From NCBI RefSeq assembly GCF_021655555.1, contig NZ_AP023086.1, positions 1,579,182 to 1,611,181 on the forward strand: DNA of 32,000 nucleotides, in the 5' to 3' direction. The stretch comes from Marinagarivorans cellulosilyticus. GTDB lineage: Bacteria; Pseudomonadota; Gammaproteobacteria; Pseudomonadales; Cellvibrionaceae. The translations under genes and the position numbers were made by a program. This document shows positions 4,545-32,000 of the stretch, piece after piece; the first letter of the stretch is position 1, and each line of letters starts with the position of its first letter. The notes below the pieces were generated by a model. The model had not been told where the DNA came from. It ran no database searches and saw only the letters and a list, made by a program, of their open reading frames with translations.

Positions 4545-4630
4545 AGTTTAATGCTGTTTTAATCGTTTTTTGAGCTCTTGCCGTTACTGGCTAAATTACA
4601 TTTATAATTAAATTGTTATTGGAGAAAAAT

Positions 4631-9634: not shown

Positions 9635-9968
9635 ATCAACTCAACATTAATGTATTCACTAAATTGTAATCTCCCTCTTATAAATCACGCGTTAATCTCG
9701 TGGCGTGATATAGCCTTTCAAATTTGCAAATCTTAATTCCAATTTTCATCCTTTCAAAATAAACCATTCAAGCCTAGCATGCACAACCTGAAAATATAGG
9801 TGCGCTTTTTTATTGTGTGGTTATGTTCCAATTCTGCTTTCTATTTGTCGAAAAATAATTATTAGCGTTGTCGTTGTAATTAAGTCTGCGTGAAATATCT
9901 TTCAGTGCTTTATAGGTTTCTGATTGGTCTTGCTGCGGAGTTCTTTGAGTTAAGTATTGGGTGTGAGG

Positions 9969-12900: not shown

Positions 12901-15900
12901 TGGTGATTCTTTTTGAGTCGATGGGAGAATCTAAACTGCATGCATTTTTATTAATGGATGATGAAGGTAAGCAACCTAAAGTCAGCGAGTTATCGGCAAG
13001 CATCGCAACAAAACTGCCTGAGTACATGGTTCCAAGTGAGTATCAGTTTGTTTCTGAATTTTCTTTGACGCTGAATGGCAAAGTTGACCGCAAGGAATTA
13101 CTGAAGCGCTTAGATGACAGGCCACCTAAAACTACAGCAAAGGACAACTTGGATCTACCCCAGTCCAATTCAATTGCATATAAACAACTAGAACAAAACC
13201 TAGAGGATAATAAAGGTAGTACTGGTTCTGAAGCTGAGCTTAAACAAGCTGCTTGCGCGCGCTCAGTTACCGGTGCCTTATACGATTTGTTAGCTAATGA
13301 TCTAGAGAATATTGTTAAAGAATTAATTCACTTGGATGACATAGATCGCGATTTACCGTTTGGGCAATACGGTTTTAATTCGCTGGGCTTTACTAGATTC
13401 AGCGCTGAGATAAGAAATAGATACAATGTTCGCGTTAGTCCCGCAACCTTTTACAGTCACAGTAACCTCAACAAATTAGTCGACTTTTTAATCGATGGTA
13501 AGTATTCAGCTGAAATTAGCGAATACTACCGAGAGGTTTTGGTAGAAAATTACCGCGATGTCGAGGAACCTTTGTATAGCGGCGATCAGGACAGCGATGC
13601 CCAAAAAGGAAGTTCACAAAACTCGGGCGTCTCTGCCATGCCATTGGAGGATACAAAAGACGGCAAACATATCAATGGTTCATTTAATTCTAGAGAGCCG
13701 ATAGCGGTCATTGGAATGTCTGTAAAAATGCCGCAAGCCGATAACCTAGATGAATATTGGGAAAACTTGATCAGCAGGAAGGATTGTGTCACTCATATCC
13801 CGGAGTCACGATGGGACTGGAAGAACACGGATTTTGAGCAACGAAGCGAAAACCCCTATAAGTGGGGTGGATTTATTCCTCATGCGGCAAGTTTTGATGC
13901 TTCGTTTTTCAAAATATCACCGAGAGAAGCGGAGCTTATGGATCCGCAGCAGCGCCTATTTTTACAAGCTTCCTATCATGCAATAGAAGATGCCGGTTAT
14001 TGCCCGGACGAACTCAACGGAAGTGATACGGGCGTTTATGTTGGCGTCGTTACCTCTGACTATTGGGATCTTATCCAAAGAGAAGACATAAGCCCTGATG
14101 GCTATACCATTTCCGGGAACATTAATTGTGTCATCGCGAATCGTATTTCCTATCATTTTAATTTTACAGGGCCTAGCTCGGTAATCGATACGGCCTGCTC
14201 GAGCTCCCTTGTTGCCCTGCATAGGGCAGTGCAAGCGATGCGAAGCGGGGAGTGTTCGCAAGCGGTTGTCGGTGGCGTCAACATCATCGCCAGCCCGTAT
14301 ATTCACCATTCTTTTAGCAAAAACGGAATGCTCAGTAAAGATGGTCGTTGCATGTCCTTCGATCATCGGGCGAATGGATATGTGCGCAGCGAAGGTATTG
14401 CAGCTGTCATATTAAAGCCCTTATCAGCTGCCGAGCGCGATGGCGACAAAATTTATGGAACCATACTAGGTACCGCCGAAAACCACGGAGGAAAGGCTAA
14501 TTCCTTGAGTGCGCCAAGCGGAGAGGCTCAATCTCAGCTTATACAAAAAGCGATCAAAAATGCTAACGTCGACCCGAATACCATTAGTTACATTGAAGCG
14601 CATGGCTCGGGTACACCACTAGGTGACCCCATTGAAATTGCCGGTATTCAAAACGCTTATGAGTCATTGGGTGTCGATTCAGATCACCAGGATGAAATTT
14701 GCGGAATCGGTTCTGTTAAATCGAATGTTGGTCATTTGGAGGCGGTAGCCGGTTTGGCCGGCCTGGTCAAAGTTCTACTATCGTTAAAAAACGAAGTCAT
14801 CCCTGGTATGCCAAATTATGAGGCGAAAAATCCTCACATTGATTTGAATGAAAACTTATTTCAATTTGTAAGCCGGCCTAGAGAATGGAAAAGAAAAAGT
14901 GGCGTAGGTAACGGTGCAGGTCGTAGAGCTGGTGTTAGCTCGTTCGGTTTCGGTGGTGTTAATGCCCACGTGATAGTGGAGGAGTATCAGGCGCGAGATG
15001 AATCGCAATCCGGCAATCGCGCGAATGCATTGCTAATTTCGGCGCCAAATAAAGATAAATTGGAAAGGCTCGTTCAGCAATACTTGGTACATACCTTAAG
15101 TGATGGGGGAAATACCTGGGAGGAGATTTGCTATACGAGTCAAGTTGGCCGGCAGCACTTTGATGAGCGTTTGATTGTTTGCGCGGCTTCCAAGCAGCAG
15201 GCAAAAAACGCGCTAGAAAAGCATGTTGATCGTTGGGGCTCGGCTAATGAAGTTCTTTCTGGAAATGTTCGTGAGCAAAAAGAAATACTGGATAAGCTAT
15301 TCTCTAATATCGGCAATACAAGCATTGTTAAAACGCTGATAGAACAAAAACAATTTAATAGCATTGCCCAGTTTTGGTTGGCAGGGAGTGAGGTAAATTG
15401 GCGCGCGCTGTATGAAGCTGCGAAGATTAAACGTGCATCCTTGCCGCTACATCCATTTGCGCAGACGACATTTTGGTTACCGAATAAGAGTACGCATTTA
15501 TTTGAGGCCGAGCTTCAAAACGCTATTAGAGAAAATAGCCATTTAGATCACCCATTTTATGACAGCCTCGCCGCTTCTTGTGGCAACCTAATATTCTCCC
15601 TAGATCCGAAAGACCCTATTGTCGGTGACCATATTGTCGACAGCAAAGTCATTTTCCCCGCCGTTGGATATTTGGAGTTTGCTAGGCTCGCTGGGGATCA
15701 ATTTAATCGAGAAAATTTAAATCTACCGGTTGTAAAACTAAAAAACAATGTGTGGTTTCACGCACTAGATGTGGGCTTTCACGAAAGTAACAAGAAGCTT
15801 TCAATACGCTTAGAAAACCGTAAATCCAAAGTGGTATACACAATCGAATCGATGTCTGAGCTGTCAAGCGGACAAGTTCATGCTCGTGGAGAAATTGAAT

Positions 15901-18900
15901 ACGGCGAAAAACCAAGTGGCCTAGTGGTAACAATTGATATTAATGATATTAGAAAACGCTGCAATCTGAAGCTGGAAAGAAAAGCGGTTTATGATCTTTT
16001 CTCGCAATTAAAGTTTGAGTACAAAACCGGCTATATGCCCCTTGAAGAGGTGTACTTGAATGACAAGGAAGCGCTATCTCGAATAACCCTTCCCGAGAAG
16101 TTCGAAAATAAAGAGTCAATAGTATTACACCCCTCTCTGCTGGAAGGAGGAATTCAAACAGTGATTGGGATTCTTTCTCATCCCAGCCACGACTCGAGTA
16201 GTGCGTACTTACCGTTTTCGATGAGCTCGATAACCATTAATGAGAAATTGTCGTCAGAGTGTTATATCCATGCCAAGCTGGTGAGTGATGAACTTAGCGA
16301 GCGAAGAGGGGTAAGGACATTTGATATAGATATTTATGATATCAGTGGAACACTACTCGTAAAAATTGAAGGGTACTCACTAAAAACGCTAAACGCACTA
16401 GCGGACAACGGTAATCAAACATCTCCGAGTGCATCAAATGTATTCCACTGTTTTAAGAAAACGTGGGCGCAAGAGCCGCTATCACCAATCGAGGGGTTCC
16501 ACTTTGAAACAATTTTGCTGTTTAGCAATGAGCAAGAGAGCGTCGATTTAATTCAGGCCCACATTGGGACTGATATTCGAGTGATCCAAGTTATGGAAGG
16601 CGATCGCTTTACAGAGTTGTCACCGAGCAAGTTTGTATCTAAAGGAGACAAGGAGAGCTTGTCAATATTGCTGGAACAAATTGGCGAGCCTTTAGATGCG
16701 ATAATATATGGGTGGGGCCACGAACGCGGAGCGACAGACGAAAGCAACGTAAACGAGCATATTGAACAAACAATTATTCCGCTCTTTAATTTATGCTCTA
16801 TTCTTTCAAACCCGATCTATAAAGGTATTAATCTTCGGTTGTTATGTTTGGCACATATTGACCACGGTGAAATTAACCCCGTACAAATGGGAATGGGAGG
16901 GCTTTTAAGATCGCTCTACCAAGAAACACGAGCATTGAAAGGCTCCTTGGTTTGTTTGGAAGCTTTGTCTGAGAATAATGTTAAGCCGCTGATAGCTGAA
17001 ATCGCTGCAGATCAATGTTATTCGGAGATCAAAATACAAGATGGTTCTAGGCAGGTTTTAAACTACAAAGCCAAATCAGTTCCAGTATTCATTGAAGAGA
17101 ATAAATTTCCCGTCAAACCACATGCAATATATTTGGTAACTGGTGGTACGGGTGCAATTGGTAGAAAAATTATCGAGCATCTGCATTCAATTGCAGGAGC
17201 TAAATTCATCGTTATCGGTCGTCGCCCTCTATCATCTGACGTTAAACTGGCGTGGAATAATAAGGGTGTTAATTATCAGTATCACAGTGCTGATTTAAAC
17301 CGCTTTGATCAGATTCAATCGATAATTCAGGGGTTGGGTGTTGATGCAAGTAAAATTAAAGGAGTAATTCATTGCGCGGGTAGCATTGATGATGGGCTAC
17401 TTTCCAAAAAATCGAGTGACCAAATTTATTCAGTCATCCAAGCTAAAGCTGTCGGGTTGTATACCCTCGATATACTAACCAAAAATATCCAGCTGGATTT
17501 TTTCTGCTGCTTCTCATCGATATCTTCGGTGATGGGGAATATGGGGCAGACGGATTATGGCTATGCCAATGCAGTAATCGATCAATTTGTAGAAAACAGA
17601 TCCCAGCAGTTTGAAAAAGGTGAGCGCAGTGGAGTTTCACTGAGTATTAACTGGCCTCTCTGGCTCGACGGTGGTATGCAAGCTGATGAGGTCGCGACAA
17701 ACTACTTCAAAAAGTCTACCGGAATACACCCAATAACCACGGAGACAGGCATGTCTATGCTAGCTTACGCGGTAAATAAAGAGAGCGGCCAAGTTATTTT
17801 AAGTGCAGGGGACGATAAGAAAATACTCGGTGCGATGAGTTTACGTTCAAGCATTCAAAATAAAAGCAAGCACAAGCCAAAATCAGAAGTTTTACTTAAA
17901 TCTGTAAAGGCGCCACTTTCTTGCGCAAGCGCCATGGACCAATCGAAAGCTAACTTATCTCAAACGGTTGTTGAAGAACTGATTACTATTTCTGAAGGTA
18001 TTCTAAAAGTTGATTCTGGGTCCATAACTCAAGATACACGTTTAGCTGATGCGGGCTTTGATTCGATAAGTAATACGGAATTAACCACTGCAATCAATGA
18101 TTTATACTCGGTTGATGTCACACCCATCATATTCTTTGAGTACGAAACCTTGGGCGAGGTCACAGAGTTTTTATTAAAGGAATATAGGGATAGCATCGTC
18201 GAACATTGTGGCGAACAGCCCAGCGCGGTCGATAATATTATTCTAGAAGCAACCGATAGTGAGCAGATAGGGGCTTCGGCTCATTCTTTAAGAGAGAATG
18301 GCGAAGCCCTCAAAGATCTTGTTATTGATGAGTTAAAAAGTTTATCCGCTGCGATTTTAAAAATTGGTAAAGAGCAAATATCGGCAGATGAAAAAATGGC
18401 AGACTTGGGCTTTGATTCCATATCCAATACGGAATTGAGCACTGCAATTAACGATGTCTTCGATGTGGATATGACCCCAGTCGTGTTTTTTGAGTGCGAT
18501 ACTCTCGCTGAGGTGAGTGAGCACTTGATTGATGAGTACAGCGAGAGTTTAGAGCGTTATGCGGATGAAAAAGGCCTTAGTCAGCAGGTAGAGCATAGCG
18601 AAAAGGTAAGTACACCCATTATAGCAAGTGAGAAAGAAAGCCTAAGTTCTAGTGAAGCGCCAAGCCCAGAGGCCAGCCGCCAAGATGGAAATGTTGCTTC
18701 AAAAAATATTACAACGAGTGATATTGCCATCGTTGGAATGCAAGCGGCACTGCCGGGCTCCAATGGGCTAGATGATTTTTGGGAAAAATTGTTGAGCGGA
18801 ACAGATTTTGTGGGCGAGATCCCTGAAAATCGCTGGTCCTGGCAAGAGGTGTATGGAGAAGCTGGGCCGGAAGGTAAAACTCGATCCAAATGGGGGGCCT

Positions 18901-21359
18901 TCCTAAATCACATTGATCAATTTGACGCAGATTTTTTTGGAATATCCGAGAGCGATGCGCAATTGATGGACCCACAGCAAAGAATGTTTTTGCAGCTTGT
19001 TTGGCACACGATTGAAGACGCGGGCTACAGTGTCGAGTCCTTCGCTGGCAGTAAAACAGGGTTATATGCCGGCCTTTCTAACCGAGATTATTCAGAATAT
19101 CTTGCCAAGCAAGGTGTTGGGCTGAGTCCACAAATGAGCTTTGGAAACAATAATGCTTTCCTGGTGAATCGAATTTCCTATTTACTGGATTTTAATGGCC
19201 CCAGTGAAGCAGTTGATACACTTTGTTCAAGTTCACTGGTGGCTCTACAAAGAGCAGTTCTGGATATTCAAAACGGAATTTGTGATCAGGCCGTTGTTGG
19301 CGGAATTAGCTTGTTAGTGAGCCCAAGATTAAGCTCCGTATTTGAGCAAGCGAGTATGCTAAGTGAGGATGGGCGCTGTAAACCTTTTGATGAGCATGCC
19401 AATGGCTTTGTCAGGGGTGAAGGAGGCGGTGCCATATTTGTTAAGCCCTTGGATAAGGCGGTTAGCGATGGCGACAATATACTCGCCGTTATCAAGGGTA
19501 GCTTTGTGAATCATGGCGGTAGAGCAAACTCGTTGACGGCACCTAATCTAAAAATTCAAAAACAGCTTTTCCAAGATGCCTATAAACGCGCGAAAATTAA
19601 TCCAGCAACTGTATCCTTAATTGAAACGCATGGAACAGGAACAAAATTAGGTGACCCCATTGAAATAAAAGCAATGAAAAAAGCTTTTGAGGAGTGGGGC
19701 GTTACTGAAGGCGGCACAGAAAAGGCTTGTGCTCTCGGCGCACTTAAATCGAATATAGGCCATCTAGAGTCGGCATCGGGTATAGCAAGCTTGATCAAAG
19801 TTTTACTGTGTATGCGCCACAAAACACTACCAAAACAGATTCACCTTCAAAAAGAAAACCCCTACTTGGAATTGAGTAAAACGCCTTTTTACCTAGTGAC
19901 GGAGAATCAGCCTTGGGTAGCCAAAACAGGTGGAGATGGAACCGTACAGCCGAGGAGAGCAGGCGTTACATCTTTTGGTGCAGGTGGGGTTAATGCTCAT
20001 ATCATCCTCGAAGAATATCTGGAGGAGTATATAGCCCCTCAACATGTTGATAACAATCCCATAAATTTGACAGAAGACACGATTGTTCTGCTTACCTTAA
20101 GCGCAAAGACTGACAAAAGCTTACGTCATTATGCGGCGGATCTATTAGCTTACATAAACAATCATACGGTTGATTTGACTGAATTGGCGTACACCTTACA
20201 GCAAGGTAGGTCAAACCACGCAGTCAAACTATCCATTGAAGTTGCTAATATTATTGAGCTTAAAGCCGCCTTGGAACCCTTTATTTCAGGTGAGCACTCA
20301 AGTCGGATCAGTTATTCGAAAAATGGCGAAATCGTATATCTCGCTCAGTCGAGCAGTGACAAACTAACACTGATTAACAAAAAATGGCTGAGTGGTGAAG
20401 TTGTAGACTGGAGCACGCTATATATCGATCAGCGTGTCAAGCGCATTTCATTACCAGGTTATCCATTCTCGAATAAATCCTACTGGGTAGAAAAGAAATC
20501 GTTTAAGCCGACTGCCAATGTTAATTTTGATAAACAAAACTATACAGAAAATTTTATAAATAAAGACTTCAACCAAGGTGAGGCCTATTTGGCTGGGCAC
20601 AAAGTATTTGGCGACGAAGTGTTACTGGGCGTGACCTACCCGTCTATGGCTATTGAGTTTTCACGTAATAACTCCAACGGGGCCAATATTAACAGCGTAA
20701 AAAATGTCGTTTTTAACGAGCCTTTGGTACTCGAAAAAAATAACTCTGCTCGAGTTGTTGTGAGCTATACCGGTAAGGATAAAGGCATAGATTTTAAAAC
20801 CTACTTTCAGGTTAAGGGAAGCCACGAGACAAAATTATCATCGGTTGGGCGTTTAACAAGCGGGCAGCTAAGTAATGACGTGTTACCCATCAGTGCATTG
20901 ATGAACAAGATCGCCTCGGTACATCAGCAAAACGAAGTCTACAAACTCCTACGAGATCAGGGCGTTGACTATTCGGGTAGCTTGTTAACGCTTCATCGCG
21001 TACTGCTTGGCGAGAATGTCGCTATCGGGGAAATTGAGCTAAGGGATGATTTAATCAATAGCACCTCTGACTACCAATTACACCCAGTCTGGTTGGACAG
21101 TGCCATTGTGTGTGGCAAGTTTGCATTCCTAAAAGATCAGGATGCTTTATACATCCCATTTAGCATCGACCAAATAACCTTTAAAACTAAGCCGAGCAGA
21201 AAATCCTACTGCGTGGTTAAGAAGACTTTACTCAACGAGCAGATTTTGAAGTTCGATGTGTCCATTTGTGATCGTTGGGGAACGGTTTCGGTTGAAGCAA
21301 AAGGAATGTCCTGTAAGAGAGTTTTAAGCCAAGGCCAATGGAGTAAGAAAAACGCGTGA
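9969..21359 (+). CDS. Hybrid NRPS / trans-AT PKS megasynthase: F, C(C-terminal lobe only), A, PCP, KS, DH, KR, ACP, ACP, KS, DH-like
   Basis: The track ORF is 9957-21359 with a TTG start. The first ATG is 9969 and GTG 9963 is also possible. Domains were read from motifs; nt positions are approximate. F domain 9984-10800 (INYHDGPLPKYGG, VDEGRII). C-terminal half of a condensation domain 10930-11580, with no HHxxxDG. A domain 11648-13100 (YTSGSTGKPKG 12084-12116, NMYGPTETT, YRTGD, GRMDNQIKLNGYRIELGEIE, LNGKVDRK). PCP 13270-13500 (GFNSLG, Ser codon 13380-13382). KS1 13695-14990 (DTACSSS with Cys 14196-14198, EAHGSGT, SNVGH). Flank of about 180 aa without an AT. DH1 15540-16400. KR 16480-17830 (TGGTGAIG, IDD, YGYAN). 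ACP 17955-18185 (Ser 18063-18065). ACP 18310-18545 (Ser 18417-18419). KS2 18720-20020 (DTLCSSS with Cys 19224-19226, ETHGTGT, SNIGH). Flank. DH-like 20560-21330. Stop 21357-21359. Confidence 0.93.
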   Translation: MDHQKFSCLIIGGTSLLIECANKWIVNGHVIKLVVTDDNDVERWAKGHDIEVIRKGSSDYLDRVMGMNFDYLFSIVNLDILPKAIINAPAILAINYHDGPLPKYGGIHATSWAIANQEPSHGISWHEMLIGVDEGRIINQQVFDIEEGESAFTLNLKCFEYAIEGFDQLVSSIEAGSLELISQDLSERSYVGKYKRPKQLAVIDWNRPSKEIVSFVKALDFEHVENPLGIAKVHINNRFFQVKEAQSTGTRSSGRPGVVESIGPNYVEVSTTTESVKLRDFKTLCGQELDFNSITNELKEGADLNFYCFDNEQTIYEESAKREVFWVRKYQEAVKVTKKKSGLPKEPSYRASIPLTDYEMDALQNNSIAAVISLLGAFIAWSRRGQGFCVGLRCSESPVEGYFFDTHPLVMEDASGMSFEDIASKIELQLREITKNEHCPIDIFSRYSSLNSQSVKGNCYEYDFIVDVNESIDYDNDYVLDDQVRLNLSLENNEWNVIAGPKFDKDLLERFTKYYSLFSSSITTKPSAKREALSGLSLISGAQIAEIDGLNDTRVAMPNKSVCEIILDKASETPNAIAVISSSTEYSYQQLQDRVSEISGCLISLGIKSGDRIGILLNRSFDMVAAFIATMKVSAVYVPLDPIYPPDRLQHMIEDSGLKVLISVENILSKLENYNGSSLLLDKDMFGGTDDLAQFPGIEDSAYIIYTSGSTGKPKGVEINHKSLTNFILSMAEEPGLSKDDHLLSVTTVCFDIAALEIYLPLTQGATLELCTEMEAKDGFALLEKLEQGRITALQATPTTWEMLIAAGWEGKEKIKAMCGGEPLRRELALKLIPRCFELWNMYGPTETTIWSSIKLIKDADEITVGRPIANTTMYVLDESLKPVWPGEKGELFIGGAGVAVGYWNREELTKERFVSQSIFNRSPERLYRTGDAAKLSTHNEVVCLGRMDNQIKLNGYRIELGEIESTIESISGIEKCVVILFESMGESKLHAFLLMDDEGKQPKVSELSASIATKLPEYMVPSEYQFVSEFSLTLNGKVDRKELLKRLDDRPPKTTAKDNLDLPQSNSIAYKQLEQNLEDNKGSTGSEAELKQAACARSVTGALYDLLANDLENIVKELIHLDDIDRDLPFGQYGFNSLGFTRFSAEIRNRYNVRVSPATFYSHSNLNKLVDFLIDGKYSAEISEYYREVLVENYRDVEEPLYSGDQDSDAQKGSSQNSGVSAMPLEDTKDGKHINGSFNSREPIAVIGMSVKMPQADNLDEYWENLISRKDCVTHIPESRWDWKNTDFEQRSENPYKWGGFIPHAASFDASFFKISPREAELMDPQQRLFLQASYHAIEDAGYCPDELNGSDTGVYVGVVTSDYWDLIQREDISPDGYTISGNINCVIANRISYHFNFTGPSSVIDTACSSSLVALHRAVQAMRSGECSQAVVGGVNIIASPYIHHSFSKNGMLSKDGRCMSFDHRANGYVRSEGIAAVILKPLSAAERDGDKIYGTILGTAENHGGKANSLSAPSGEAQSQLIQKAIKNANVDPNTISYIEAHGSGTPLGDPIEIAGIQNAYESLGVDSDHQDEICGIGSVKSNVGHLEAVAGLAGLVKVLLSLKNEVIPGMPNYEAKNPHIDLNENLFQFVSRPREWKRKSGVGNGAGRRAGVSSFGFGGVNAHVIVEEYQARDESQSGNRANALLISAPNKDKLERLVQQYLVHTLSDGGNTWEEICYTSQVGRQHFDERLIVCAASKQQAKNALEKHVDRWGSANEVLSGNVREQKEILDKLFSNIGNTSIVKTLIEQKQFNSIAQFWLAGSEVNWRALYEAAKIKRASLPLHPFAQTTFWLPNKSTHLFEAELQNAIRENSHLDHPFYDSLAASCGNLIFSLDPKDPIVGDHIVDSKVIFPAVGYLEFARLAGDQFNRENLNLPVVKLKNNVWFHALDVGFHESNKKLSIRLENRKSKVVYTIESMSELSSGQVHARGEIEYGEKPSGLVVTIDINDIRKRCNLKLERKAVYDLFSQLKFEYKTGYMPLEEVYLNDKEALSRITLPEKFENKESIVLHPSLLEGGIQTVIGILSHPSHDSSSAYLPFSMSSITINEKLSSECYIHAKLVSDELSERRGVRTFDIDIYDISGTLLVKIEGYSLKTLNALADNGNQTSPSASNVFHCFKKTWAQEPLSPIEGFHFETILLFSNEQESVDLIQAHIGTDIRVIQVMEGDRFTELSPSKFVSKGDKESLSILLEQIGEPLDAIIYGWGHERGATDESNVNEHIEQTIIPLFNLCSILSNPIYKGINLRLLCLAHIDHGEINPVQMGMGGLLRSLYQETRALKGSLVCLEALSENNVKPLIAEIAADQCYSEIKIQDGSRQVLNYKAKSVPVFIEENKFPVKPHAIYLVTGGTGAIGRKIIEHLHSIAGAKFIVIGRRPLSSDVKLAWNNKGVNYQYHSADLNRFDQIQSIIQGLGVDASKIKGVIHCAGSIDDGLLSKKSSDQIYSVIQAKAVGLYTLDILTKNIQLDFFCCFSSISSVMGNMGQTDYGYANAVIDQFVENRSQQFEKGERSGVSLSINWPLWLDGGMQADEVATNYFKKSTGIHPITTETGMSMLAYAVNKESGQVILSAGDDKKILGAMSLRSSIQNKSKHKPKSEVLLKSVKAPLSCASAMDQSKANLSQTVVEELITISEGILKVDSGSITQDTRLADAGFDSISNTELTTAINDLYSVDVTPIIFFEYETLGEVTEFLLKEYRDSIVEHCGEQPSAVDNIILEATDSEQIGASAHSLRENGEALKDLVIDELKSLSAAILKIGKEQISADEKMADLGFDSISNTELSTAINDVFDVDMTPVVFFECDTLAEVSEHLIDEYSESLERYADEKGLSQQVEHSEKVSTPIIASEKESLSSSEAPSPEASRQDGNVASKNITTSDIAIVGMQAALPGSNGLDDFWEKLLSGTDFVGEIPENRWSWQEVYGEAGPEGKTRSKWGAFLNHIDQFDADFFGISESDAQLMDPQQRMFLQLVWHTIEDAGYSVESFAGSKTGLYAGLSNRDYSEYLAKQGVGLSPQMSFGNNNAFLVNRISYLLDFNGPSEAVDTLCSSSLVALQRAVLDIQNGICDQAVVGGISLLVSPRLSSVFEQASMLSEDGRCKPFDEHANGFVRGEGGGAIFVKPLDKAVSDGDNILAVIKGSFVNHGGRANSLTAPNLKIQKQLFQDAYKRAKINPATVSLIETHGTGTKLGDPIEIKAMKKAFEEWGVTEGGTEKACALGALKSNIGHLESASGIASLIKVLLCMRHKTLPKQIHLQKENPYLELSKTPFYLVTENQPWVAKTGGDGTVQPRRAGVTSFGAGGVNAHIILEEYLEEYIAPQHVDNNPINLTEDTIVLLTLSAKTDKSLRHYAADLLAYINNHTVDLTELAYTLQQGRSNHAVKLSIEVANIIELKAALEPFISGEHSSRISYSKNGEIVYLAQSSSDKLTLINKKWLSGEVVDWSTLYIDQRVKRISLPGYPFSNKSYWVEKKSFKPTANVNFDKQNYTENFINKDFNQGEAYLAGHKVFGDEVLLGVTYPSMAIEFSRNNSNGANINSVKNVVFNEPLVLEKNNSARVVVSYTGKDKGIDFKTYFQVKGSHETKLSSVGRLTSGQLSNDVLPISALMNKIASVHQQNEVYKLLRDQGVDYSGSLLTLHRVLLGENVAIGEIELRDDLINSTSDYQLHPVWLDSAIVCGKFAFLKDQDALYIPFSIDQITFKTKPSRKSYCVVKKTLLNEQILKFDVSICDRWGTVSVEAKGMSCKRVLSQGQWSKKNA

Positions 21360-24772: not shown

Positions 24773-24777
24773 TTTTA

Positions 24778-25962: not shown

Positions 25963-26039
25963 ATGATCATCTTTGATTAAGCAGGGTACAACCTAGTAAT
26001 AGCAATTAATTTAGTCTTTAACTAATGCAGGATTATGTT

Positions 26040-29000
26040 ATGGAGAGGATGATAGAGTCTAGAAAAATGGCTGGTAAAAATACGAGCCAATCAATGGTTG
26101 ATTATCTGATTAGGCGGATTGAAGTGATTACGAAATCGTCTATCACTAAATCTGATTTAAAAAAGAACATAATGGATTTAGGTGTTGACTCTATTGGCCT
26201 AGTGAATATTGTGGATGATATTAAAAAGGAATTCGATATTGACCTGCAACCCACAATATTCTTCGAGTATCAGAGTATTTCTGAATTATCAACATACTTG
26301 ATAGACGAAGTTGGAAGTGCTGATGCACCGGCAGCCGCTGCCAACGTTAAAGAGACATATTCGTATATCGAACAACCCGATAAAAAATTTGAATCTCAAG
26401 AATTGCAGAGTAGGAGAGGTCACGCTGCGTCGTTTGTTCGGGATGCCAGCGAAGGTGATTTGGAGGATCTGTTCAATGCTTTTCAGGGTGCTGAGGGCGG
26501 TTCTAATTACCAGGATGCGAGCAAAAGCTACGCAAAACCTAAAGTAAAAGCCGAATTGGAAGATATCGCGGTTATCGGAATGGCTGGTAAGTTTTCCGGC
26601 TCAGATAATGTGAATGAGTTCTGGGAAAATATATCTAGCCAGAAAGACTTATTTAGTAAGGTTCCTAGCGACAGATTTGATTACGCGCAGTGGGCATCAG
26701 AGAATTATGATCTGGCAGATAAAATATACTGCGATCGCGGGAGCTTCATTTCTGATGTAGATAAGTTTGACGCTTCTTTTTTTAATATTCCCCCAAAAGA
26801 AGCCGCGATCTTAGATCCTCAGCTCAGACTATTACTGCAAGTTATTTATGAATCGATAGAAGATGCTGGCTATGCAAATAAGATAAGGGGAACAAACACC
26901 GGTATGTATGTTGGTGCTTGTTTTCACGATTACGAACTAGAACTGGTAAGGAACATGGGCGAGATGAGCCCCTATTTTGGGACTGGTAATGCCCTCACAA
27001 TGTTGGCGAATCGACCATCCTTTTATTTGGATTTAAAAGGGCCGAGTTTACCTTTGGACACTGCTTGCTCAGCCTCGTTAGTTGCCGTTAACGCAGCGCT
27101 GCAAGCTTTAAGAAATGACGAATGTGAAATGGCTTTTGTTGCCGGTACTAATTTACTTCTGAGTCCGCTTCATTATCGATACTTTTGTGCCATTGGCGCA
27201 CTATCTAAATCTGGAAATAGCTTCCCTTTTGACTCTCGAGCCGACGGTTATTTGCCTGGGGAGGCCGTGGGGGCTGTTTTACTCAAGCCACTTGAAAAGG
27301 CAAAGCGTGATGGGGATGAGATCCACGCAGTCATTAAGAGCGCCGCTGTAAATCACGGTGGTTATAGTGCTTCGTTCACTGCGCCCAATGTTTCGCAAGA
27401 AGCCGCAGTGATTAAAAAAGCGCTGTACGCTGGTGGTATCCCCGCAGAAAGTATTTCCTATATTGAAGCGCATGGAACGGGCACCTCGCTCGGCGATCCA
27501 ATAGAAGTTCAGGGTTTAAAGCAAGCTTTTAAAGGCGTAAATACTGATATTGCGCAATGTGCCCTCGGGACCACCAAGGCTCATATTGGGCACGCTGAAG
27601 GTGCTGCAGGTATAGCTGGGCTAATTAAAGTGATATTAGCCATGAAAAATAAAACAATCCCTGCAATGCCTCACCTCGAAGAGATTAACCCCTATATCAA
27701 TATGGAAGGGTCCCCTCTGTACATCAATAGACAAAATAAAAAATGGGAAGCCAATAGCGGATTTCCTAGAAGAGCAGGAATTAGCTCCTTCGGTATCGGT
27801 GGTGCCTATGCGCATATTGTTGTAGAAGAGTACGAGCAAGAGGAAATTGCAAACACTGCGCCTGACGAAAAGGATTCGGTGTTTGTGCTTTCAGCACGAA
27901 GTGAAGAGGTTTTACGCTCCTATTCAAATAATATTGCTGACTATGTTGAGGAGCAGTATTTAGGGGGGGGCATTAGTGGCTTGTACTCACCGAGTAAACT
28001 TTCCGAGTTTATTTTATCTGAAACTGGCAAAGATATCCCGGAAACCAGCTACGACGAGCACCTATTGGATCTGGGCTTTGATATATATGATTATGTAAAA
28101 ATCGCCGATCGCCTTTCTCGTGAGATGAACTCCAATGTGAGCGCTCGAATTATTTCACTACACCCAACGCTCTTCAAATTGGCTAACTTTCTTTCTGGTT
28201 CAGAAAATGTTGAAACGCCAAGGGTACGAGTGAGTGATCTTGCTTACACCATGCAGGTGGGCAGAGAGGCTATGCCATATCGTTTGGCTATTGTTACACG
28301 CGACCACGAAACACTCATCGAAGAATTAAGAAGTTTCTCCAAAAATACTCAAAGTGGACAAGCCTGTTTTTATAATTTGGGCCAGAAATCCGATCAATGG
28401 AGTGAGCTACTAGAGACCCAAGAGGGTGAAGGGTTTCTAAAAACGCTACTGGAATCTGGTAATCAAACGCATCTAGCAAAGCTTTGGGTTAATGGCGTTG
28501 ACGTACCCTGGGGAAGCACCACTGCTGAAAAAAGACGACTGGTAAAGCTACCCTCTTACCCTTTCCAAAAAGTTCGCTTTTGGTATTCCGAAGAAGTAGC
28601 GGTACAGCCCAAAAATAAAGAAAAAATCATAAATATTGTTGATCAGGTACGCAAGAAAGAAACGACAGCGGATATCCTTAAAGATATATGGATGACGTAC
28701 TTGTCTGTGGAATCGATTAATGAGAATGATAATTTCATGGCGTTGGGTGGGACTTCAATTAATTCGACCCAAGTTGTGGTAGAAATCAACAGACGCTTCG
28801 ATACAAATATCACTGTCGGTGAATTTGGCCAATGCAAGGATTTGGGCGAGTTATCATCCATTGTTGAATCGCGCAAAAAGCCTGAGCGTGCTGATAGCTC
28901 TAGCGTCAGTACCCTAGTTCGGAGTATTACTTCCTCTAATAAAAAGCAAGGTAAGCTGAGTTCCGATCAGATGAGGCTTTGGGTTTTGTCCCAAATGTAT

Positions 29001-32000
29001 CCAAATAACCACCGTCATAATATTTCATCGGCGTATGAAATAACCGCCGCACTCAATCCGTCAATTCTTCAAGAATCAATGGATATTGTAGTAGCTACCC
29101 ACGGTTCAATAAGAACTCGTTTTGGCACCAAAGACGGTGTTCCTTATCAGGATATCGTCGATACATCCAAAATCAAAATTACATTCCACGACAATGTCCA
29201 GTCGAGAGCACAAGCCTTAGACATCATCAACGAAGCAGCAAAAAGACCTTTTGAACTCGACAAGGCAGAACTTGTTCGTGTGACGGTAATTAATGAAGGT
29301 GGCGTAGTAATTCTTTCAATCATTGCTCATCACATTATTGCAGATATTACGTCTGTCGATGTTATTGCGAAAGATCTAATTACTACCTACAGCGCGTTAA
29401 CAAACGGTAGCAAAGGTGAAAGTATTGACTTAGGCCGTGCACAATTTCTAGACTATATTTCCTTGTCTGCGGATTCCAAAATAAAGACGAAGTCTCAGGA
29501 CATTAGTTTTTGGAGGGAGTATCTAAAAGATGCACCTAACGAGATTACCTTGCCTTTCGACAGCCCGCGCGGTGAAAGTCACTCTCATAATTCCAAGCAG
29601 CTTCACTTTGAACTGGGTAAGGAGCACGTTAACTTGGTGCGCAATACCGCCAAGTCACTATCAATTACTCCTTTTATATTAACCTATTCGGTTTTTAACG
29701 TCGTATTTTCGGAATTGTGCCAACAGCACGACTTCCTTATCGGGGTGCCAAACGCGAATAGGCATTTACCCGATAGCCAAGATATGGTTGGTTTTTTGGC
29801 GAATACTTTGGTCTTAAGGTCTAAGGTTACTCAAGAACAAGACTTCGAGTCTTATACCAAGGATGTTAAAAATGATCTTTATAATGTCTTTGACCATCAA
29901 AATATGGGGTTTGGTGATATTGCCGCGGAACTGAAAGTCCCATCACCTAAAAACCATAATCCAATGTTTCAAATACTCTTCAATATGATTAATCGCGATG
30001 AGTATTTACTGCAAGAAAATGGAATTAGCCTAAAAACCCTCCCGATTCCATTGGTCACCCTAGATTTTGATATTCTATTTTCGGTGGATATCATGGGGGA
30101 GCGTTTGCGTGTCTCCATGGATTTCGATTCGGATCTATTTGAGACAAAAACTGTAGAATCGATTTTAAACGCTTTTGAGCTTGCGCTTGGATACACCCTT
30201 GATATCTTAAGCCGAGGCGAAAGCCTGGTTTGTTCTTCGATTGGCGCACTGTGCAAACTGTGTGACACGAAGGAAAATGAGCGAAATGAGGAAGGAAAAT
30301 TACTCATTTCATCTACCTTTACGGCTGAGCCGCTGTCCGAAACGCTTAATTTTTGGCTGGATAAAGTCGGCTTAAACCTAGGCCTCGACTATGCGCCTTA
30401 CAACCAGGTGTTTCAGCAACTACTTGATCCTTCGCAAGGCTTATACAGTAACCCGAAGGGCGTGAATACTGTTCTGGTCCGTTTAGATGATTGGCTGCGC
30501 TTCAATCGACAGAATAGTTCCGTCGGCTCCGTTGATGAAGAGTTAAATCGAATTCTTGATGATTTCGAAAAAGCGCTGATTCAATATGGAAGTTCAGTTT
30601 CCACTGCGCTCGTGGTAGTGCTGCTGCCCACGAATCAGGAAAATTCTAAAGAGCATTTGCTTCGTGAAAGGGTGGAAAAAGTCGCCAGCGGTTTTAGCAA
30701 TATCAATGTCCTAGGGAGCGACGAGATAGACGCCTATTACTCTGTCGACGAAAAGTTTGACTCAGTTGCAGACAGCGTTGGTCACGTGCCCTTTACATCT
30801 AGCTATTTTTCGGCGATTGGTACCGCACTTGTACGCAGCGTTAGGTCGCACTTTCTCAGTCCGTATAAAGTGATTGTAGTCGATTGTGATAACACGCTAT
30901 GGAAGGGGGTCGTTGGTGAACTCGGCTGTGAGGGAATCCAAATTGACCCCGCACGCCAAAAATTACAAGAGTTTCTAGTCGAGCAGAAAAATGCGGGTGT
31001 TTTATTGTGTGTTGCCAGTAAAAATGTCGAGGAGGATGTTGCTTCCGTATTTGGTCAGCGAACAGATATGCCACTTAAGTCAGACGACGTTGTTCTTTGG
31101 AAGGTTAATTGGGACGCGAAATCAAAGAATATCATTGAGATGTCTAACGAGCTTAATTTGGGTTTGGATAGCTTCGTCTTTATTGATGACAACCCAATTG
31201 AGTGTGCGGAAGTATCTGCCGCTTTACCCCAAGTATTAACCATTCAATTCCCTCAAGAATCGAAAGAGATTGAGTCCATGTTGAATTCGCTTTGGGACCT
31301 AGACCGTAAAGGGGTCTCAGGGGAAGACTCGAAGCGTACTGACCTTTATCAGCAGAATATTAAACGCGATAAAGCCTTAAAGAATTCTAGCTCTTTTCAG
31401 GATTTCATCGATAGCTTGGAGCTTCAAATTGATTTTCAGCCGGTCGATGACAGCACTATAGGGCGCGTAAGCCAGCTGTTTTTGCGTACCAACCAATTTA
31501 ATGCGACAACCCGGCGGCACAGTCAATCGCAGTTGGAACAGATGATTCGAGATCGCGGTTACGAATGCACGACGGTCTCGGTAAAGGATCGGTTTGGAGA
31601 ATACGGTTTAGTTGGCGTTTTGCTGTATAGCTTTAATAAAGATTGTGTTGTTCTCGATAGTTTTTTGCTGAGCTGTCGTGTGCTAGGTAAGGGCGTTGAG
31701 CACCGAATGATCAATGAGGTGGCAAAGAAGGCATCTCAAAGAAGCGTGGCAAGTGTGCAACTGGACTTTGTTGAAACCGAAAAAAATATTCCAATTAAGA
31801 AGTTTTACGATTCAATAAAGCCTTCTAGCTGGGATCCCCAGGAGCACAAGTACCTCATTAAGGTTGAAGATGCGTTGCGCTTTAAGTTTAATCCAGAGTT
31901 TAAATCGCAGGATGTTAACGAACAACCTAAGGTAATTGAAACTTTCAATAATAAATCACCCGTCGAAATGGCTGAGGTGGCCTTAAATCTCAATTCTATC
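26040..32000 (+). CDS. Hybrid trans-AT PKS / NRPS megasynthase, 5' part (open at the right edge): ACP, KS, flank with Ser-less carrier-like insert, T, C, FkbH-like
   Basis: Not in the ORF track because it has no stop in the window. My codon-by-codon translation from ATG 26040 (AGGA 7 nt upstream; ATG 26049 and 26067 are alternatives) is open for 1987 codons to nt 32000. ACP about 26090-26310 (MDLGVDSIG, Ser 26190-26192). KS3 26559-27835 (DTACSAS with Cys 27066-27068, EAHGTGT, KAHIGH). Flank 27840-28590 (LAYTMQVGREAMPYR...LPSYPFQKVRFW). T 28650-28870 (FMALGGTSI, Ser 28755-28757). C 28955-30250 (AHHIIAD 29328-29345). FkbH-like 30290 to beyond 32000 (VVDCDNTLWKG with Asp 30882-30884; FIDDNP; LLSCRVLGKG with Cys 31674-31676). 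Confidence 0.9.
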   Translation, partial: MERMIESRKMAGKNTSQSMVDYLIRRIEVITKSSITKSDLKKNIMDLGVDSIGLVNIVDDIKKEFDIDLQPTIFFEYQSISELSTYLIDEVGSADAPAAAANVKETYSYIEQPDKKFESQELQSRRGHAASFVRDASEGDLEDLFNAFQGAEGGSNYQDASKSYAKPKVKAELEDIAVIGMAGKFSGSDNVNEFWENISSQKDLFSKVPSDRFDYAQWASENYDLADKIYCDRGSFISDVDKFDASFFNIPPKEAAILDPQLRLLLQVIYESIEDAGYANKIRGTNTGMYVGACFHDYELELVRNMGEMSPYFGTGNALTMLANRPSFYLDLKGPSLPLDTACSASLVAVNAALQALRNDECEMAFVAGTNLLLSPLHYRYFCAIGALSKSGNSFPFDSRADGYLPGEAVGAVLLKPLEKAKRDGDEIHAVIKSAAVNHGGYSASFTAPNVSQEAAVIKKALYAGGIPAESISYIEAHGTGTSLGDPIEVQGLKQAFKGVNTDIAQCALGTTKAHIGHAEGAAGIAGLIKVILAMKNKTIPAMPHLEEINPYINMEGSPLYINRQNKKWEANSGFPRRAGISSFGIGGAYAHIVVEEYEQEEIANTAPDEKDSVFVLSARSEEVLRSYSNNIADYVEEQYLGGGISGLYSPSKLSEFILSETGKDIPETSYDEHLLDLGFDIYDYVKIADRLSREMNSNVSARIISLHPTLFKLANFLSGSENVETPRVRVSDLAYTMQVGREAMPYRLAIVTRDHETLIEELRSFSKNTQSGQACFYNLGQKSDQWSELLETQEGEGFLKTLLESGNQTHLAKLWVNGVDVPWGSTTAEKRRLVKLPSYPFQKVRFWYSEEVAVQPKNKEKIINIVDQVRKKETTADILKDIWMTYLSVESINENDNFMALGGTSINSTQVVVEINRRFDTNITVGEFGQCKDLGELSSIVESRKKPERADSSSVSTLVRSITSSNKKQGKLSSDQMRLWVLSQMYPNNHRHNISSAYEITAALNPSILQESMDIVVATHGSIRTRFGTKDGVPYQDIVDTSKIKITFHDNVQSRAQALDIINEAAKRPFELDKAELVRVTVINEGGVVILSIIAHHIIADITSVDVIAKDLITTYSALTNGSKGESIDLGRAQFLDYISLSADSKIKTKSQDISFWREYLKDAPNEITLPFDSPRGESHSHNSKQLHFELGKEHVNLVRNTAKSLSITPFILTYSVFNVVFSELCQQHDFLIGVPNANRHLPDSQDMVGFLANTLVLRSKVTQEQDFESYTKDVKNDLYNVFDHQNMGFGDIAAELKVPSPKNHNPMFQILFNMINRDEYLLQENGISLKTLPIPLVTLDFDILFSVDIMGERLRVSMDFDSDLFETKTVESILNAFELALGYTLDILSRGESLVCSSIGALCKLCDTKENERNEEGKLLISSTFTAEPLSETLNFWLDKVGLNLGLDYAPYNQVFQQLLDPSQGLYSNPKGVNTVLVRLDDWLRFNRQNSSVGSVDEELNRILDDFEKALIQYGSSVSTALVVVLLPTNQENSKEHLLRERVEKVASGFSNINVLGSDEIDAYYSVDEKFDSVADSVGHVPFTSSYFSAIGTALVRSVRSHFLSPYKVIVVDCDNTLWKGVVGELGCEGIQIDPARQKLQEFLVEQKNAGVLLCVASKNVEEDVASVFGQRTDMPLKSDDVVLWKVNWDAKSKNIIEMSNELNLGLDSFVFIDDNPIECAEVSAALPQVLTIQFPQESKEIESMLNSLWDLDRKGVSGEDSKRTDLYQQNIKRDKALKNSSSFQDFIDSLELQIDFQPVDDSTIGRVSQLFLRTNQFNATTRRHSQSQLEQMIRDRGYECTTVSVKDRFGEYGLVGVLLYSFNKDCVVLDSFLLSCRVLGKGVEHRMINEVAKKASQRSVASVQLDFVETEKNIPIKKFYDSIKPSSWDPQEHKYLIKVEDALRFKFNPEFKSQDVNEQPKVIETFNNKSPVEMAEVALNLNSI
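27963..27970. repeat. G8 homopolymer inside the megasynthase coding sequence
   Basis: Direct count: tta ggg ggg ggc, encoding L-G-G-G. Confidence 0.95.

What the first reader, a model, noticed from the sequence alone, without database searches (positions are those of the whole stretch)
28650..32000. A condensation domain is followed by an FkbH-like glycerate-loading domain instead of an A domain
After KS3 and T comes a C domain with an intact HHxxxD (AHHIIAD). Directly after it is an FkbH-type unit with an N-terminal region, HAD motif I (VVDCDNTLW), motif FIDDNP, and the C-terminal LLSCRVLGKG with the Cys that carries the glyceryl intermediate in characterised FkbH enzymes. FkbH proteins convert 1,3-bisphosphoglycerate to glyceryl-S-carrier, usually as discrete enzymes or in loading modules. 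A mid-line C-FkbH pair implies that the polyketide chain is condensed onto a glyceryl-carrier acceptor, probably through its hydroxyl group, giving an ester. The acceptor carrier would lie beyond the window.
Basis: partly seen in the sequence, partly recalled or inferred. Interest (0 to 1): 0.7.

Follow-up and report, generated by a model that had tools for sequence, protein, structure and literature searches.

The report
Glycerate ester module in polyketide synthase
One long polyketide-synthase gene really does fuse a condensation domain to a complete glycerate-loading (FkbH) unit, which most likely splices glycerate into the growing chain through an ester bond; this kind of module has already been described in several pathways, so this is a new example, not a new mechanism.

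Summary
One uninterrupted reading frame (26022-32000, running off the window) encodes ACP-KS-T-C-NEX-HAD-GNAT. The C domain (Pfam 2e-71) has HHIIAD. The FkbH unit (TIGR01686, 8.5e-91) keeps every family-wide conserved residue, including DxDxT, DD and the SCR cysteine. The only orthologue found, a Cellvibrionaceae MAG (46% identity over 2001 aa), continues with a T domain and a stop. After that come a KS-KR-T gene and a discrete AT-AT gene. The missing acceptor carrier is therefore expected about 40-60 residues beyond the window.

C-FkbH-T modules are published for clostyrylpyrone, vioprolide, corramycin, cystomanamide and foxicin. Clostyrylpyrone is the closest match: a trans-AT PKS with this module mid-line, followed by one more KS extension. 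Malleicyprol BurF has a trimmed C-NEX-T version that was shown in vitro to esterify a beta-keto chain. Among 80 related loci, 33 have a C domain directly before the FkbH unit.

The module before C lacks a KR, so the donor is probably a beta-ketoacyl chain. This makes later lactone, butenolide or pyrone cyclisation plausible.

Verdict: new member of a known kind, in a lineage poorly represented in databases. Interest is modest.

The parts
26040..32000 (+). PKS/NRPS-hybrid gene, truncated by the window end. It encodes ACP-KS-T-C-NEX-HAD-GNAT. The start could be the ATG at 26025, 26040 or 26049.
   Evidence: One stop-free frame 26022-32000. Domain calls. 46% identical and collinear over 2001 aa with L001 ORF 5687-12091.
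26151..26300 (+). N-terminal ACP (GVDS, Ser51). It completes the split KS-DH module at the end of the 3800-aa PKS (9957-21359).
   Evidence: Pfam PP-binding aa 38-87. Motif. The upstream protein ends in KS-DH.
26559..27953 (+). KS3 with its C-terminal extension. Catalytic Cys, HGTGT and xGH motifs are intact, so it is predicted to elongate. No AT follows.
   Evidence: Pfam ketoacyl-synt 2.3e-72, Ketoacyl-synt_C, KAsynt_C_assoc. Motifs. 71% identical to the orthologous KS in L001.
28167..28346 (+). Trans-AT-type post-KS linker (RhiE-like/CurL-like). No KR, DH or MT lies between KS3 and the carrier.
   Evidence: Pfam PF22336 and PF22621. No other family matched in aa 640-870.
28674..28871 (+). 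Donor carrier (T), PCP-like LGGTS, Ser906 at 28755-28757. It presents the upstream chain, predicted to be beta-ketoacyl, to the C domain.
   Evidence: Second PP-binding stretch. Motif.
28953..30188 (+). Condensation domain. HHIIAD at 29328-29345; the second His is His1098 at 29331-29333. Predicted to form an ester.
   Evidence: Pfam PF00668, 2e-71. Nearest solved structures are LCL-type C domains. Scores slightly better with an HMM of FkbH-preceding C domains than with one of other C domains (+10 bits; none of 51 other C domains exceeds -16.8). An aliphatic residue after the motif Asp is enriched in FkbH-preceding C domains (8/27 against 1/50).
30297..30854 (+). NEX, the N-terminal extension subdomain of long FkbH proteins. 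It has no Pfam family.
   Evidence: No Pfam hit. Conserved block FTAEP...APYNQVFQQLL. Modelled with high confidence and covered, together with HAD, by PDB 3slr. Named NEX in PMC12304814.
30867..31319 (+). HAD-IIIC phosphatase subdomain. DCDNT at 30882-30896 (Asp1615 nucleophile), SKN at 31017-31025, FIDDNP at 31179-31196.
   Evidence: TIGR01681 2.9e-19 and TIGR01686 8.5e-91. 3slr matches by sequence at 3.4e-25 and by fold at 2.6e-20. Residues invariant in 81/81.
31425..31877 (+). GNAT-fold glyceryl-transferase subdomain with the invariant SCRxxG loop (Cys1879 at 31674-31676).
   Evidence: C-terminal part of TIGR01686. Fold matches to GNAT acetyltransferases at about 1e-5. Cys, Arg and Gly invariant in 81/81.
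31878..32000 (+). Linker leading to the acceptor T domain, which lies beyond the window.
   Evidence: Low-confidence tail in the model. In L001 the carrier starts about 95 aa after the FkbH unit.
9957..21359 (+). Upstream assembly line: formyltransferase-like domain, AMP-binding (FAAL-like), ACP, KS-DH-KR-ACP-ACP, KS-DH. It supplies the chain.
   Evidence: Pfam. NCBIfam ArnA/Fmt-like N-terminus. KS motifs intact. 41% identical to L001 ORF 41-5647.
4613..5230 (+). NADPH-dependent FMN reductase. It is the only non-PKS gene shared with the orthologous cluster.
   Evidence: Pfam FMN_red 3e-24. 67% identical to L001 19854-20456.

Best explanation
This is a glycerate-incorporating elongation module, C-FkbH-T, embedded in a trans-AT polyketide synthase.

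Proposed mechanism:
1. The tripartite FkbH unit (NEX, HAD phosphatase, GNAT-fold transferase) takes a phosphorylated glycerate. This is 1,3-bisphosphoglycerate in the classical scheme; D-3-phosphoglycerate was reported as activated by the vioprolide domain. The unit holds the glycerate on Cys1879, removes the phosphate at the DxDxT site, and passes glyceryl to the phosphopantetheine of a T domain that lies just beyond the window.
2. The C domain (HHIIAD) uses a glycerate hydroxyl as the acceptor nucleophile. It attacks the thioester of the chain on the upstream T domain (Ser906) and forms an ester.
3. The module before C is KS-T only, with no KR, so the donor is probably a 3-oxoacyl chain. The starter is loaded by an FAAL-like domain and extended three times.
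4. By analogy with the orthologous cluster, the acyl-O-glyceryl thioester is then extended once more by a KS-(KR)-T module. No thioesterase was seen in the 8.4 kb after the L001 PKS genes, so cyclisation may drive release, giving a lactone, butenolide or pyrone as in clostyrylpyrone and malleicyprol.

Shown here: domain order, intact motifs, fold, the orthologue's downstream T and KS, and the prevalence of the module.

Inferred: the substrate, the ester bond, the regiochemistry, the beta-keto state of the donor, and the release chemistry.
For: - Continuous ORF and domain calls.
- Motifs at the stated coordinates.
- All 97 family-conserved residues are retained, including the Asp, Asp-Asp and Cys residues.
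- AF2 model with pLDDT 85.4 shows NEX+HAD (3slr, 2.6e-20) followed by a GNAT fold.
- Orthologue L001 has ACP-KS-T-C-NEX-FkbH-T, then KS-KR-T, then AT-AT.
- All KS domains have Cys/His/His, and no KR lies between KS3 and T.
- The C domain leans towards the FkbH-associated C type.
- 34 of 81 FkbH units surveyed have C directly upstream, and T follows wherever downstream sequence is available.
- Many C-FkbH-T proteins of about 1200 aa occur in the protein database.
- Literature on ester-forming C plus FkbH: vioprolide and cystomanamide (PMC8949500, PMC9581180), corramycin (PMC10099666), foxicin PKS-C-FkbH|PCP-TE (PMC5318452), and clostyrylpyrone trans-AT C-F-ACP followed by a last extension (bioRxiv 10.1101/2020.08.10.245514).
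- BurF C-NEX-T esterifies a beta-keto chain in vitro, and a His mutant abolishes the activity (PMC12304814).
Against: - The acceptor T domain and everything after it are not in the window. They are inferred from a single orthologue at 46% identity.
- By sequence the C domain looks like an ordinary LCL amide-forming domain: best PDB hits are 7kvw and TycC, while SgcC5 scores only 1.4e-12. Its preference for the FkbH-associated C profile is small (+10 bits).
- No biochemical data exist for this protein.
- The KR of the orthologue's last module has an atypical NADPH motif, so the reduction state is uncertain.
- Trans-acting reductases could alter the donor.
Confidence: 0.8

Rival explanations
1. 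Tetronate-type termination. The C domain esterifies the 3-oxoacyl chain onto the 2-OH of glyceryl-S-T. A Dieckmann cyclisation then releases a 3-acyl-5-hydroxymethyl-tetronate directly, so the glycerate module is the end of the line, not a mid-line insertion.
For: The donor module lacks a KR, so a beta-keto thioester is expected. Glyceryl-ACP plus a beta-ketoacyl chain is the classical tetronate logic, though there it is catalysed by FabH-like enzymes (PMC7489565). No thioesterase was found in the 8.4 kb after the L001 PKS genes.
Against: The orthologue carries an intact KS (Cys/His/His) with KR-T directly after the FkbH-T gene, which implies further extension. In BurF the analogous Dieckmann product was looked for and not found. 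The window's own downstream genes are unknown.
Confidence: 0.1
2. The FkbH-T pair makes glyceryl-T as a precursor of a hydroxymalonyl or methoxymalonyl extender unit, or for some other trans use. The C domain is unrelated to it, being either a docking relic or an amide former for another acceptor.
For: FkbH enzymes are best known from methoxymalonyl-ACP pathways.
Against: No FkbK- or FkbI-type dehydrogenase and no FkbG-type O-methyltransferase is present in the window or in L001. C, NEX-FkbH and T are covalently fused in module order in both orthologues and in 34 of 81 surveyed units. HHxxxD is intact. No A domain that could load an amino acceptor lies next to it.
Confidence: 0.03
3. The unit loads something other than plain glycerate, such as a retained phosphoglycerate or another small hydroxy acid. 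The C domain then esterifies or otherwise couples to that.
For: Substrate identity is inferred only from family membership. The vioprolide domain was reported to activate D-3-phosphoglycerate rather than only 1,3-BPG. BurF shows that the C-NEX-T scaffold can work with a different alpha-hydroxy acid.
Against: All phosphatase and transferase residues of glycerate-loading FkbH units are retained, and the full-length TIGR01686 match is far above its cutoff.
Confidence: 0.05

Closest known systems
Clostyrylpyrone synthase CspB/D/E of Clostridium roseum (bioRxiv 10.1101/2020.08.10.245514)
   Same: A trans-AT modular PKS with a mid-line C-FkbH-ACP module. The module is proposed to insert D-glycerate through a regiospecific ester bond. 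One last KS extension follows on a separate protein. There is no release domain, and cyclisation-driven release is proposed. The orthologue L001 shows the same order: C-NEX-FkbH-T, then KS-KR-T, then a discrete AT.
   Different: The starter is an A-domain-loaded trihydroxybenzoate, not an FAAL-like/formyltransferase-like loading region. The host is a Firmicute, not a likely marine gammaproteobacterium. The CspD sequence could not be retrieved, so no direct sequence comparison was made. The window cluster also has an MMPL/LolA-like exporter.
Malleicyprol synthetase BurF terminal module (ACP3-C-NEX-T-Red; PMC12304814)
   Same: A C domain receives a beta-keto polyketide chain from an upstream carrier and esterifies it onto a T-bound alpha-hydroxy acid. 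Between C and T sits a NEX domain homologous to the FkbH N-terminal extension. The motif is HHxxxDx, not HHxxxDG. Activity was demonstrated in vitro and abolished by a His mutation.
   Different: BurF has lost the HAD and GNAT subdomains, and its hydroxy acid (trigonic acid) is loaded in trans by BurJ/BurH. Release is reductive, followed by Knoevenagel cyclisation. The window keeps the complete FkbH unit.
Vioprolide VioA and corramycin ComK (FAAL-ACP-C-FkbH-T)
   Same: An FAAL-primed acyl chain is esterified by a C domain onto FkbH-loaded glyceryl-S-T.
   Different: In those systems the fatty acyl is passed directly from the loading ACP, and NRPS modules follow. Here three trans-AT PKS modules lie between the FAAL and C, and a KS module follows (in the orthologue).
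Cystomanamide CymA-D module 4 (C-FkbH-PCP) and foxicin FoxBII/FoxBIII (…KR-ACP-C-FkbH | PCP-TE)
   Same: C-FkbH-carrier is used as an internal or late module. In foxicin it comes directly after PKS modules, with the carrier on the next protein.
   Different: Cystomanamide has NRPS neighbours. Foxicin is a cis-AT actinomycete PKS ending in TE.
Discrete FkbH/ACP pairs of tetronate and methoxymalonyl pathways (Tmn16, Mad7/Mad14, OzmB, FkbH)
   Same: The same HAD plus transferase chemistry makes glyceryl-S-carrier (the OzmB mechanism is from my own knowledge of Dorrestein et al. 2006, cited).
   Different: Those are stand-alone proteins. Coupling to the polyketide is by FabH-like enzymes (C-C and C-O bonds) or after oxidation to an extender unit, not by a fused C domain.

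Membership tests
FkbH-type glyceryl transferase/phosphatase (TIGR01686; HAD-IIIC) | Full-length match to the family profile above the curated cutoff | tested here: met
   TIGR01686: 304.4 bits against a cutoff of 146.65, profile positions 4-317 of 323. TIGR01681 HAD-SF-IIIC: 70.2 bits against 35.75.
FkbH-type glyceryl transferase/phosphatase (TIGR01686; HAD-IIIC) | HAD catalytic motifs (DxDxT nucleophile, S/T-K-N, Lys, DD) | tested here: met
   D1615-C-D1617-N-T1619, S1660-K-N, K1694 and D1716-D1717 are present. They are invariant or nearly invariant in 81 aligned units.
FkbH-type glyceryl transferase/phosphatase (TIGR01686; HAD-IIIC) | C-terminal transferase subdomain with the conserved Cys | tested here: met
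   S1878-C1879-R1880...G1883 is invariant in 81/81. The subdomain has a GNAT fold in the model. The role of the Cys as the glyceryl carrier is taken from the literature and was not tested here.
FkbH-type glyceryl transferase/phosphatase (TIGR01686; HAD-IIIC) | Conversion of 1,3-bisphosphoglycerate to glyceryl-S-carrier | not testable with these tools
   This needs an enzyme assay with intact-protein MS.
NRPS condensation domain, ester-forming use | Condensation-domain fold and profile with an intact HHxxxD | tested here: met
   PF00668, 2e-71. HHIIAD at aa 1097-1102. Aligns over its whole length to solved C domains.
NRPS condensation domain, ester-forming use | Sequence affiliation with C domains that precede FkbH units rather than with amide-forming C domains | tested here: inconclusive
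   The window scores +10 bits and L001 +3.3 bits for the FkbH-preceding profile. In leave-one-out tests none of 51 other C domains exceeded -16.8, and 18 of 26 FkbH-preceding domains were above 0. An aliphatic residue after the motif Asp occurs in 8/27 against 1/50. However, the domain is divergent from both groups, and nearest-neighbour distances are mixed.
NRPS condensation domain, ester-forming use | Assignment to the SgcC5-type by published core-motif classifiers | not tested
   No such classifier was available. By plain sequence, SgcC5 (4znm) is a distant hit (1.4e-12) compared with LCL domains (1e-36). PMC12304814 notes that ester-forming C domains generally group with LCL.
C-FkbH-T glycerate-ester module (vioprolide/clostyrylpyrone type) | C, NEX-FkbH and a carrier fused in that order, with a donor carrier upstream | tested here: inconclusive
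   T-C-NEX-FkbH lie in one frame in the window. The downstream carrier lies outside the window but is present in orthologue L001. It is also present in every surveyed locus with enough downstream sequence.
C-FkbH-T glycerate-ester module (vioprolide/clostyrylpyrone type) | Product contains glycerate O-acylated by the upstream chain | not testable with these tools
   No product or source organism is known.
trans-AT polyketide synthase | KS-containing modules without an integrated AT, trans-AT-type post-KS linkers, and a discrete AT gene | tested here: inconclusive
   No Acyl_transf_1 domain occurs in either PKS protein. RhiE-like/CurL-like linkers follow each KS. A discrete AT-AT gene is present in L001, but none lies within the window.

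The most novel reading that the evidence does not exclude
The window and its single orthologue may define an undescribed family of lipid-like polyketide-glycerate hybrids from marine gammaproteobacteria. An FAAL-primed chain, preceded by an unexplained formyltransferase-like domain, would be delivered as a 3-oxoacyl thioester and esterified to glycerate. It would then be extended once more and released without a thioesterase by spontaneous butenolide/pyrone-type cyclisation. The product would be an aliphatic counterpart of the clostyrylpyrone dilactone or a malleicyprol-like reactive butenolide, exported by the MMPL/LolA-like system encoded inside the operon.
Probability: 0.3. Interest if true: 0.5.

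Novelty: new member of a known kind. Interest (0 to 1): 0.3.

Why it matters
This gives a well-preserved, complete version (C-NEX-HAD-GNAT) of the module whose trimmed form makes the butenolide core of the Burkholderia toxin malleicyprol. It adds a second trans-AT example of mid-line glycerate insertion after clostyrylpyrone. The survey shows that C-FkbH-T modules are frequent across Acidobacteriota, cyanobacteria, Chloroflexota and others: 33 of 80 related loci. They deserve to be treated by genome-mining tools as a standard hydroxy-acid, ester-forming module. For this locus, the practical value is a prediction that the product contains an in-chain glycerate ester next to a beta-keto group. 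The mechanism itself is not new.

Tried and rejected
1. Finding the source contig to read beyond 32000 failed.
- Exact look-ups of two complete window proteins found nothing.
- An exact 41-base search of metagenome contigs found nothing.
- A genome-contig scan gave at best 48% identity.
- A metagenome protein scan gave only relatives at 27% identity or less.
- Protein-database searches gave at best 35% identity with C+FkbH and at most 60% with KS3. The search with linker+T+C returned nothing at E<=1e-30.
- The downstream part therefore rests on one orthologue, L001.

2. Classifying the C domain against solved structures gave only LCL-like neighbours. This does not discriminate, because published ester-forming C domains also group with LCL.

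3. An NJ tree of 79 C domains placed the window and L001 next to the FkbH-preceding group, but on a long branch with mixed nearest neighbours. I therefore relied on the HMM leave-one-out test, and even that is only suggestive.

4. The frameshift or independent-loading idea is rejected. The frame is continuous and the fusion is conserved.

5. The degenerate-domain idea is rejected.

6. The methoxymalonyl-extender role is rejected for lack of the accessory genes.

7. CspD, VioA and BurF sequences could not be fetched by name, so no direct pairwise comparison with characterised modules was possible.
Full report
**What is in the sequence.** The region lies in one reading frame without stops from 26022 to the window end (translation). 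Numbering below counts from the ATG at 26040. Pfam and NCBIfam give the following domains:
- ACP, aa 38-87.
- KS, aa 174-546, with the C-terminal extension and RhiE/CurL-type linker typical of trans-AT synthases.
- A PCP-like carrier, aa 879-944 (LGGTS, Ser906).
- A condensation domain, aa 972-1383 (2e-71).
- About 210 residues with no Pfam family.
- An FkbH domain, aa 1610-1926 (TIGR01686, 8.5e-91, 304 bits against a cutoff of 147).

These matches are far beyond chance.

**Is the FkbH unit functional-looking?** I aligned the unit with 80 relatives fetched from genomes. The window carries the family residue at all 97 positions that are at least 95% conserved. These include the DxDxT aspartates, S-K-N, Lys1694, the DD pair, and the Ser-Cys-Arg...Gly loop, which is invariant in 81/81. 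An AlphaFold model built on 33 sequences is confident (mean pLDDT 85.4). Its N-terminal two thirds match PDB 3slr, described as the 'N-terminal part of BF1531 containing phosphatase domain', at 2.6e-20. Its last 150 residues match GNAT acetyltransferases at about 1e-5 (sequence-level match to 3slr). The unit therefore has three parts: the N-terminal extension called NEX in PMC12304814, the HAD phosphatase, and a GNAT-fold transferase that carries the invariant cysteine. That this cysteine holds the glyceryl intermediate comes from my knowledge of the OzmB work (Dorrestein et al. 2006, listed). It was not tested here.

**Is there a gene boundary between C and FkbH?** No. The frame is continuous. 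The one orthologue I could find is a Cellvibrionaceae MAG contig (L001). It encodes a 2134-aa protein that is 46% identical and collinear over 2001 residues, with the same order: ACP-KS-T-C-NEX-FkbH. It continues with a T domain (FFDMGGSSLL) and a stop. The window stops about 60 residues after the FkbH unit, and in L001 the carrier begins about 95 residues after it.

**Context.** Neither PKS protein in the window has an AT domain. The 3800-aa protein at 9957-21359 reads: formyltransferase-like domain, AMP-binding (FAAL-like), ACP, KS-DH-KR-ACP-ACP, KS-DH. The ACP that opens the gene under study completes that last module. All KS domains keep Cys, HGTGT and xGH. The module feeding the C domain is KS-T with no reductive domain, so the donor is most simply a 3-oxoacyl thioester.

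In L001 the genes after the FkbH-T protein are as follows:
- KS-KR-T, with an intact KS and a KR that has an unusual YDGLVGIG nucleotide motif.
- A discrete AT-AT.
- A 230-aa MBL-fold protein.
- An FMN reductase.

The FMN reductase is 67% identical to window ORF 4613-5230. No thioesterase was seen in those 8.4 kb.

**How common is the arrangement?** I surveyed the 80 related loci plus the window:
- 34 units have a C domain directly upstream of NEX-FkbH.
- A T domain follows the unit wherever downstream sequence is available.
- Among the 34, the nearest upstream loading or condensing domain is an A domain in 15 and a KS in 8.
- Downstream comes T-C in 14, T alone in 13 and T-KS in 2 (L001 and an Aetokthonos hydrillicola contig).

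The protein database likewise holds many C-FkbH-T proteins of about 1200 aa, some ending in TE, R or A domains.

**C-domain type.** Against solved structures, the domain resembles ordinary LCL domains (7kvw 1e-36, TycC 1e-33). SgcC5 is far behind at 1.4e-12. This does not argue against ester formation, because PMC12304814 reports that VioA, BurF and most other ester-forming C domains group with LCL.

Within my own set, C domains that precede FkbH units cluster together in an NJ tree, and the window/L001 pair sits next to them on a long branch. I built two HMMs that exclude the window and L001. The window scores +10 bits and L001 +3.3 bits in favour of the FkbH-preceding profile. In leave-one-out tests none of 51 other C domains scored above -16.8, and 18 of 26 FkbH-preceding domains scored above 0. 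The residue after the motif Asp is aliphatic (I, V or L) in 8 of 27 FkbH-preceding domains against 1 of 50 others. The window and L001 both have Ile. This evidence is suggestive, not decisive.

**Comparison with what is known.**
- FkbH domains standing 'in place of A domains' in NRPS modules are described for cystomanamide and vioprolide, with an 'ester bond-forming C domain'. Cystomanamide has the module mid-line: (C-FkbH-PCP)4.
- Corramycin shares the FAAL-ACP-C-HAD-T start with vioprolide.
- Foxicin has a cis-AT PKS ending ...KR-ACP-C-FkbH, with PCP-TE on the next protein.
[quoted passage not shown] A last extension on a separate protein follows, and release is spontaneous by lactone and pyrone formation because no release domain exists.
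- The malleicyprol synthetase BurF carries ACP3-C-NEX-T-Red. In vitro, its C domain esterifies a beta-keto polyketide onto a T-bound alpha-hydroxy acid, and a His-to-Ala mutation abolishes this. The authors suggest BurF lost the phosphatase and transferase subdomains.

The window shows the complete, unreduced form of that architecture.

**Mechanism and its rivals.** The best-supported reading (confidence about 0.8) is a glycerate-inserting, ester-forming elongation module. FkbH loads glyceryl onto the downstream T domain. The C domain then transfers the upstream chain, probably 3-oxoacyl, onto a glycerate hydroxyl. The chain is extended once more. The regiochemistry, the reduction state and the release step are inferred.

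A beta-ketoacyl ester next to a thioester or a new ketone is set up for Dieckmann, Knoevenagel or pyrone closure. A tetronate-type termination is therefore the main rival (about 0.1). The intact KS module downstream in L001, and the absence of the Dieckmann product in the BurF assays, argue against it. A role in making methoxymalonyl extender units is unlikely (about 0.03), because none of the accessory dehydrogenase or methyltransferase genes is present. A different hydroxy-acid substrate cannot be excluded (about 0.05).

**Verdict.** The premise that a mid-line C-FkbH pair is unusual is not supported: it is a published and widespread module type. This locus is a new member of that kind. It is notable mainly because its lineage is nearly absent from the databases searched and because of its lipid-like context. 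Interest 0.3.

Noticed in passing
window 9957-10900 (N-terminus of the 3800-aa PKS): A formyltransferase-like domain sits in front of the AMP-binding/FAAL-like loading domain. It matches ArnA/Fmt-type formyltransferases (90 bits; Pfam Formyl_trans_N 1e-11) and keeps the N-x-H motif (INYHDGPLP). The roughly 270 residues between it and the adenylation domain match no family. It is unclear what a formyltransferase would do on a fatty-acyl starter. An orphan sponge-symbiont trans-AT cluster legend also lists FT, FAAL and FkbH together (PMC7196800).
   Followed up: partly
window 21602-25962: Two non-PKS genes lie between the two PKS genes and split the KS-DH | ACP module. One is an MMPL/HAE3-type RND transporter fused to a LolA-like domain (1056 aa). 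The other is a 394-aa ORF with no family match. The orthologous cluster L001 has its PKS genes adjacent and lacks both. This suggests lipid-type export of the product.
   Followed up: partly
window 4613-5230 and L001 19854-20456: An NADPH-dependent FMN reductase is the only non-PKS gene conserved between the two clusters (67% identity). It sits at opposite ends of them. Its flavin-dependent partner enzyme is not evident.
   Followed up: no
window 5451-6524 and 6588-7565: Two MBL-fold proteins lie upstream. The second is weakly similar to AttM/AiiA lactonases (52 bits, far below cutoff). Next to them is a divergently oriented LysR regulator (7613-8590, minus strand). A lactonase-like enzyme beside a cluster predicted to make a lactone or butenolide may be meaningful or may be coincidence.
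   Followed up: no
L001 12131-15817 (KS-KR-T): The KR of the module after FkbH-T has YDGLVGIG in place of the usual TGGxGxxG nucleotide-binding motif, and only a weak Pfam KR score (1e-12). It may be inactive, which would leave a beta-keto group and favour pyrone-type release.
   Followed up: partly
L045 7163-11530 (Thiotrichaceae MAG): Five tandem ACPs, a PUFA-synthase-like feature, directly precede a C-NEX-FkbH-T-C-A arrangement. This suggests that a polyunsaturated or long-chain fatty acyl is esterified to glycerate in that organism.
   Followed up: no
one search hit list (for example P0049, P0066, P0071): A large separate family of proteins of about 1300 aa combines FkbH with a PKS dehydratase, an FkbM-type methyltransferase and a carrier, without a C domain. 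Another family is FkbH-T-TE, about 1000 aa. Both are abundant in metagenomes and were not examined further.
   Followed up: no
whole window: No near-identical sequence was found in any collection searched (GTDB representative genomes, JGI metagenomes, the 5.8-billion-protein set). The best relative of the PKS gene is 46% identical, so the source lineage is poorly sampled.
   Followed up: yes
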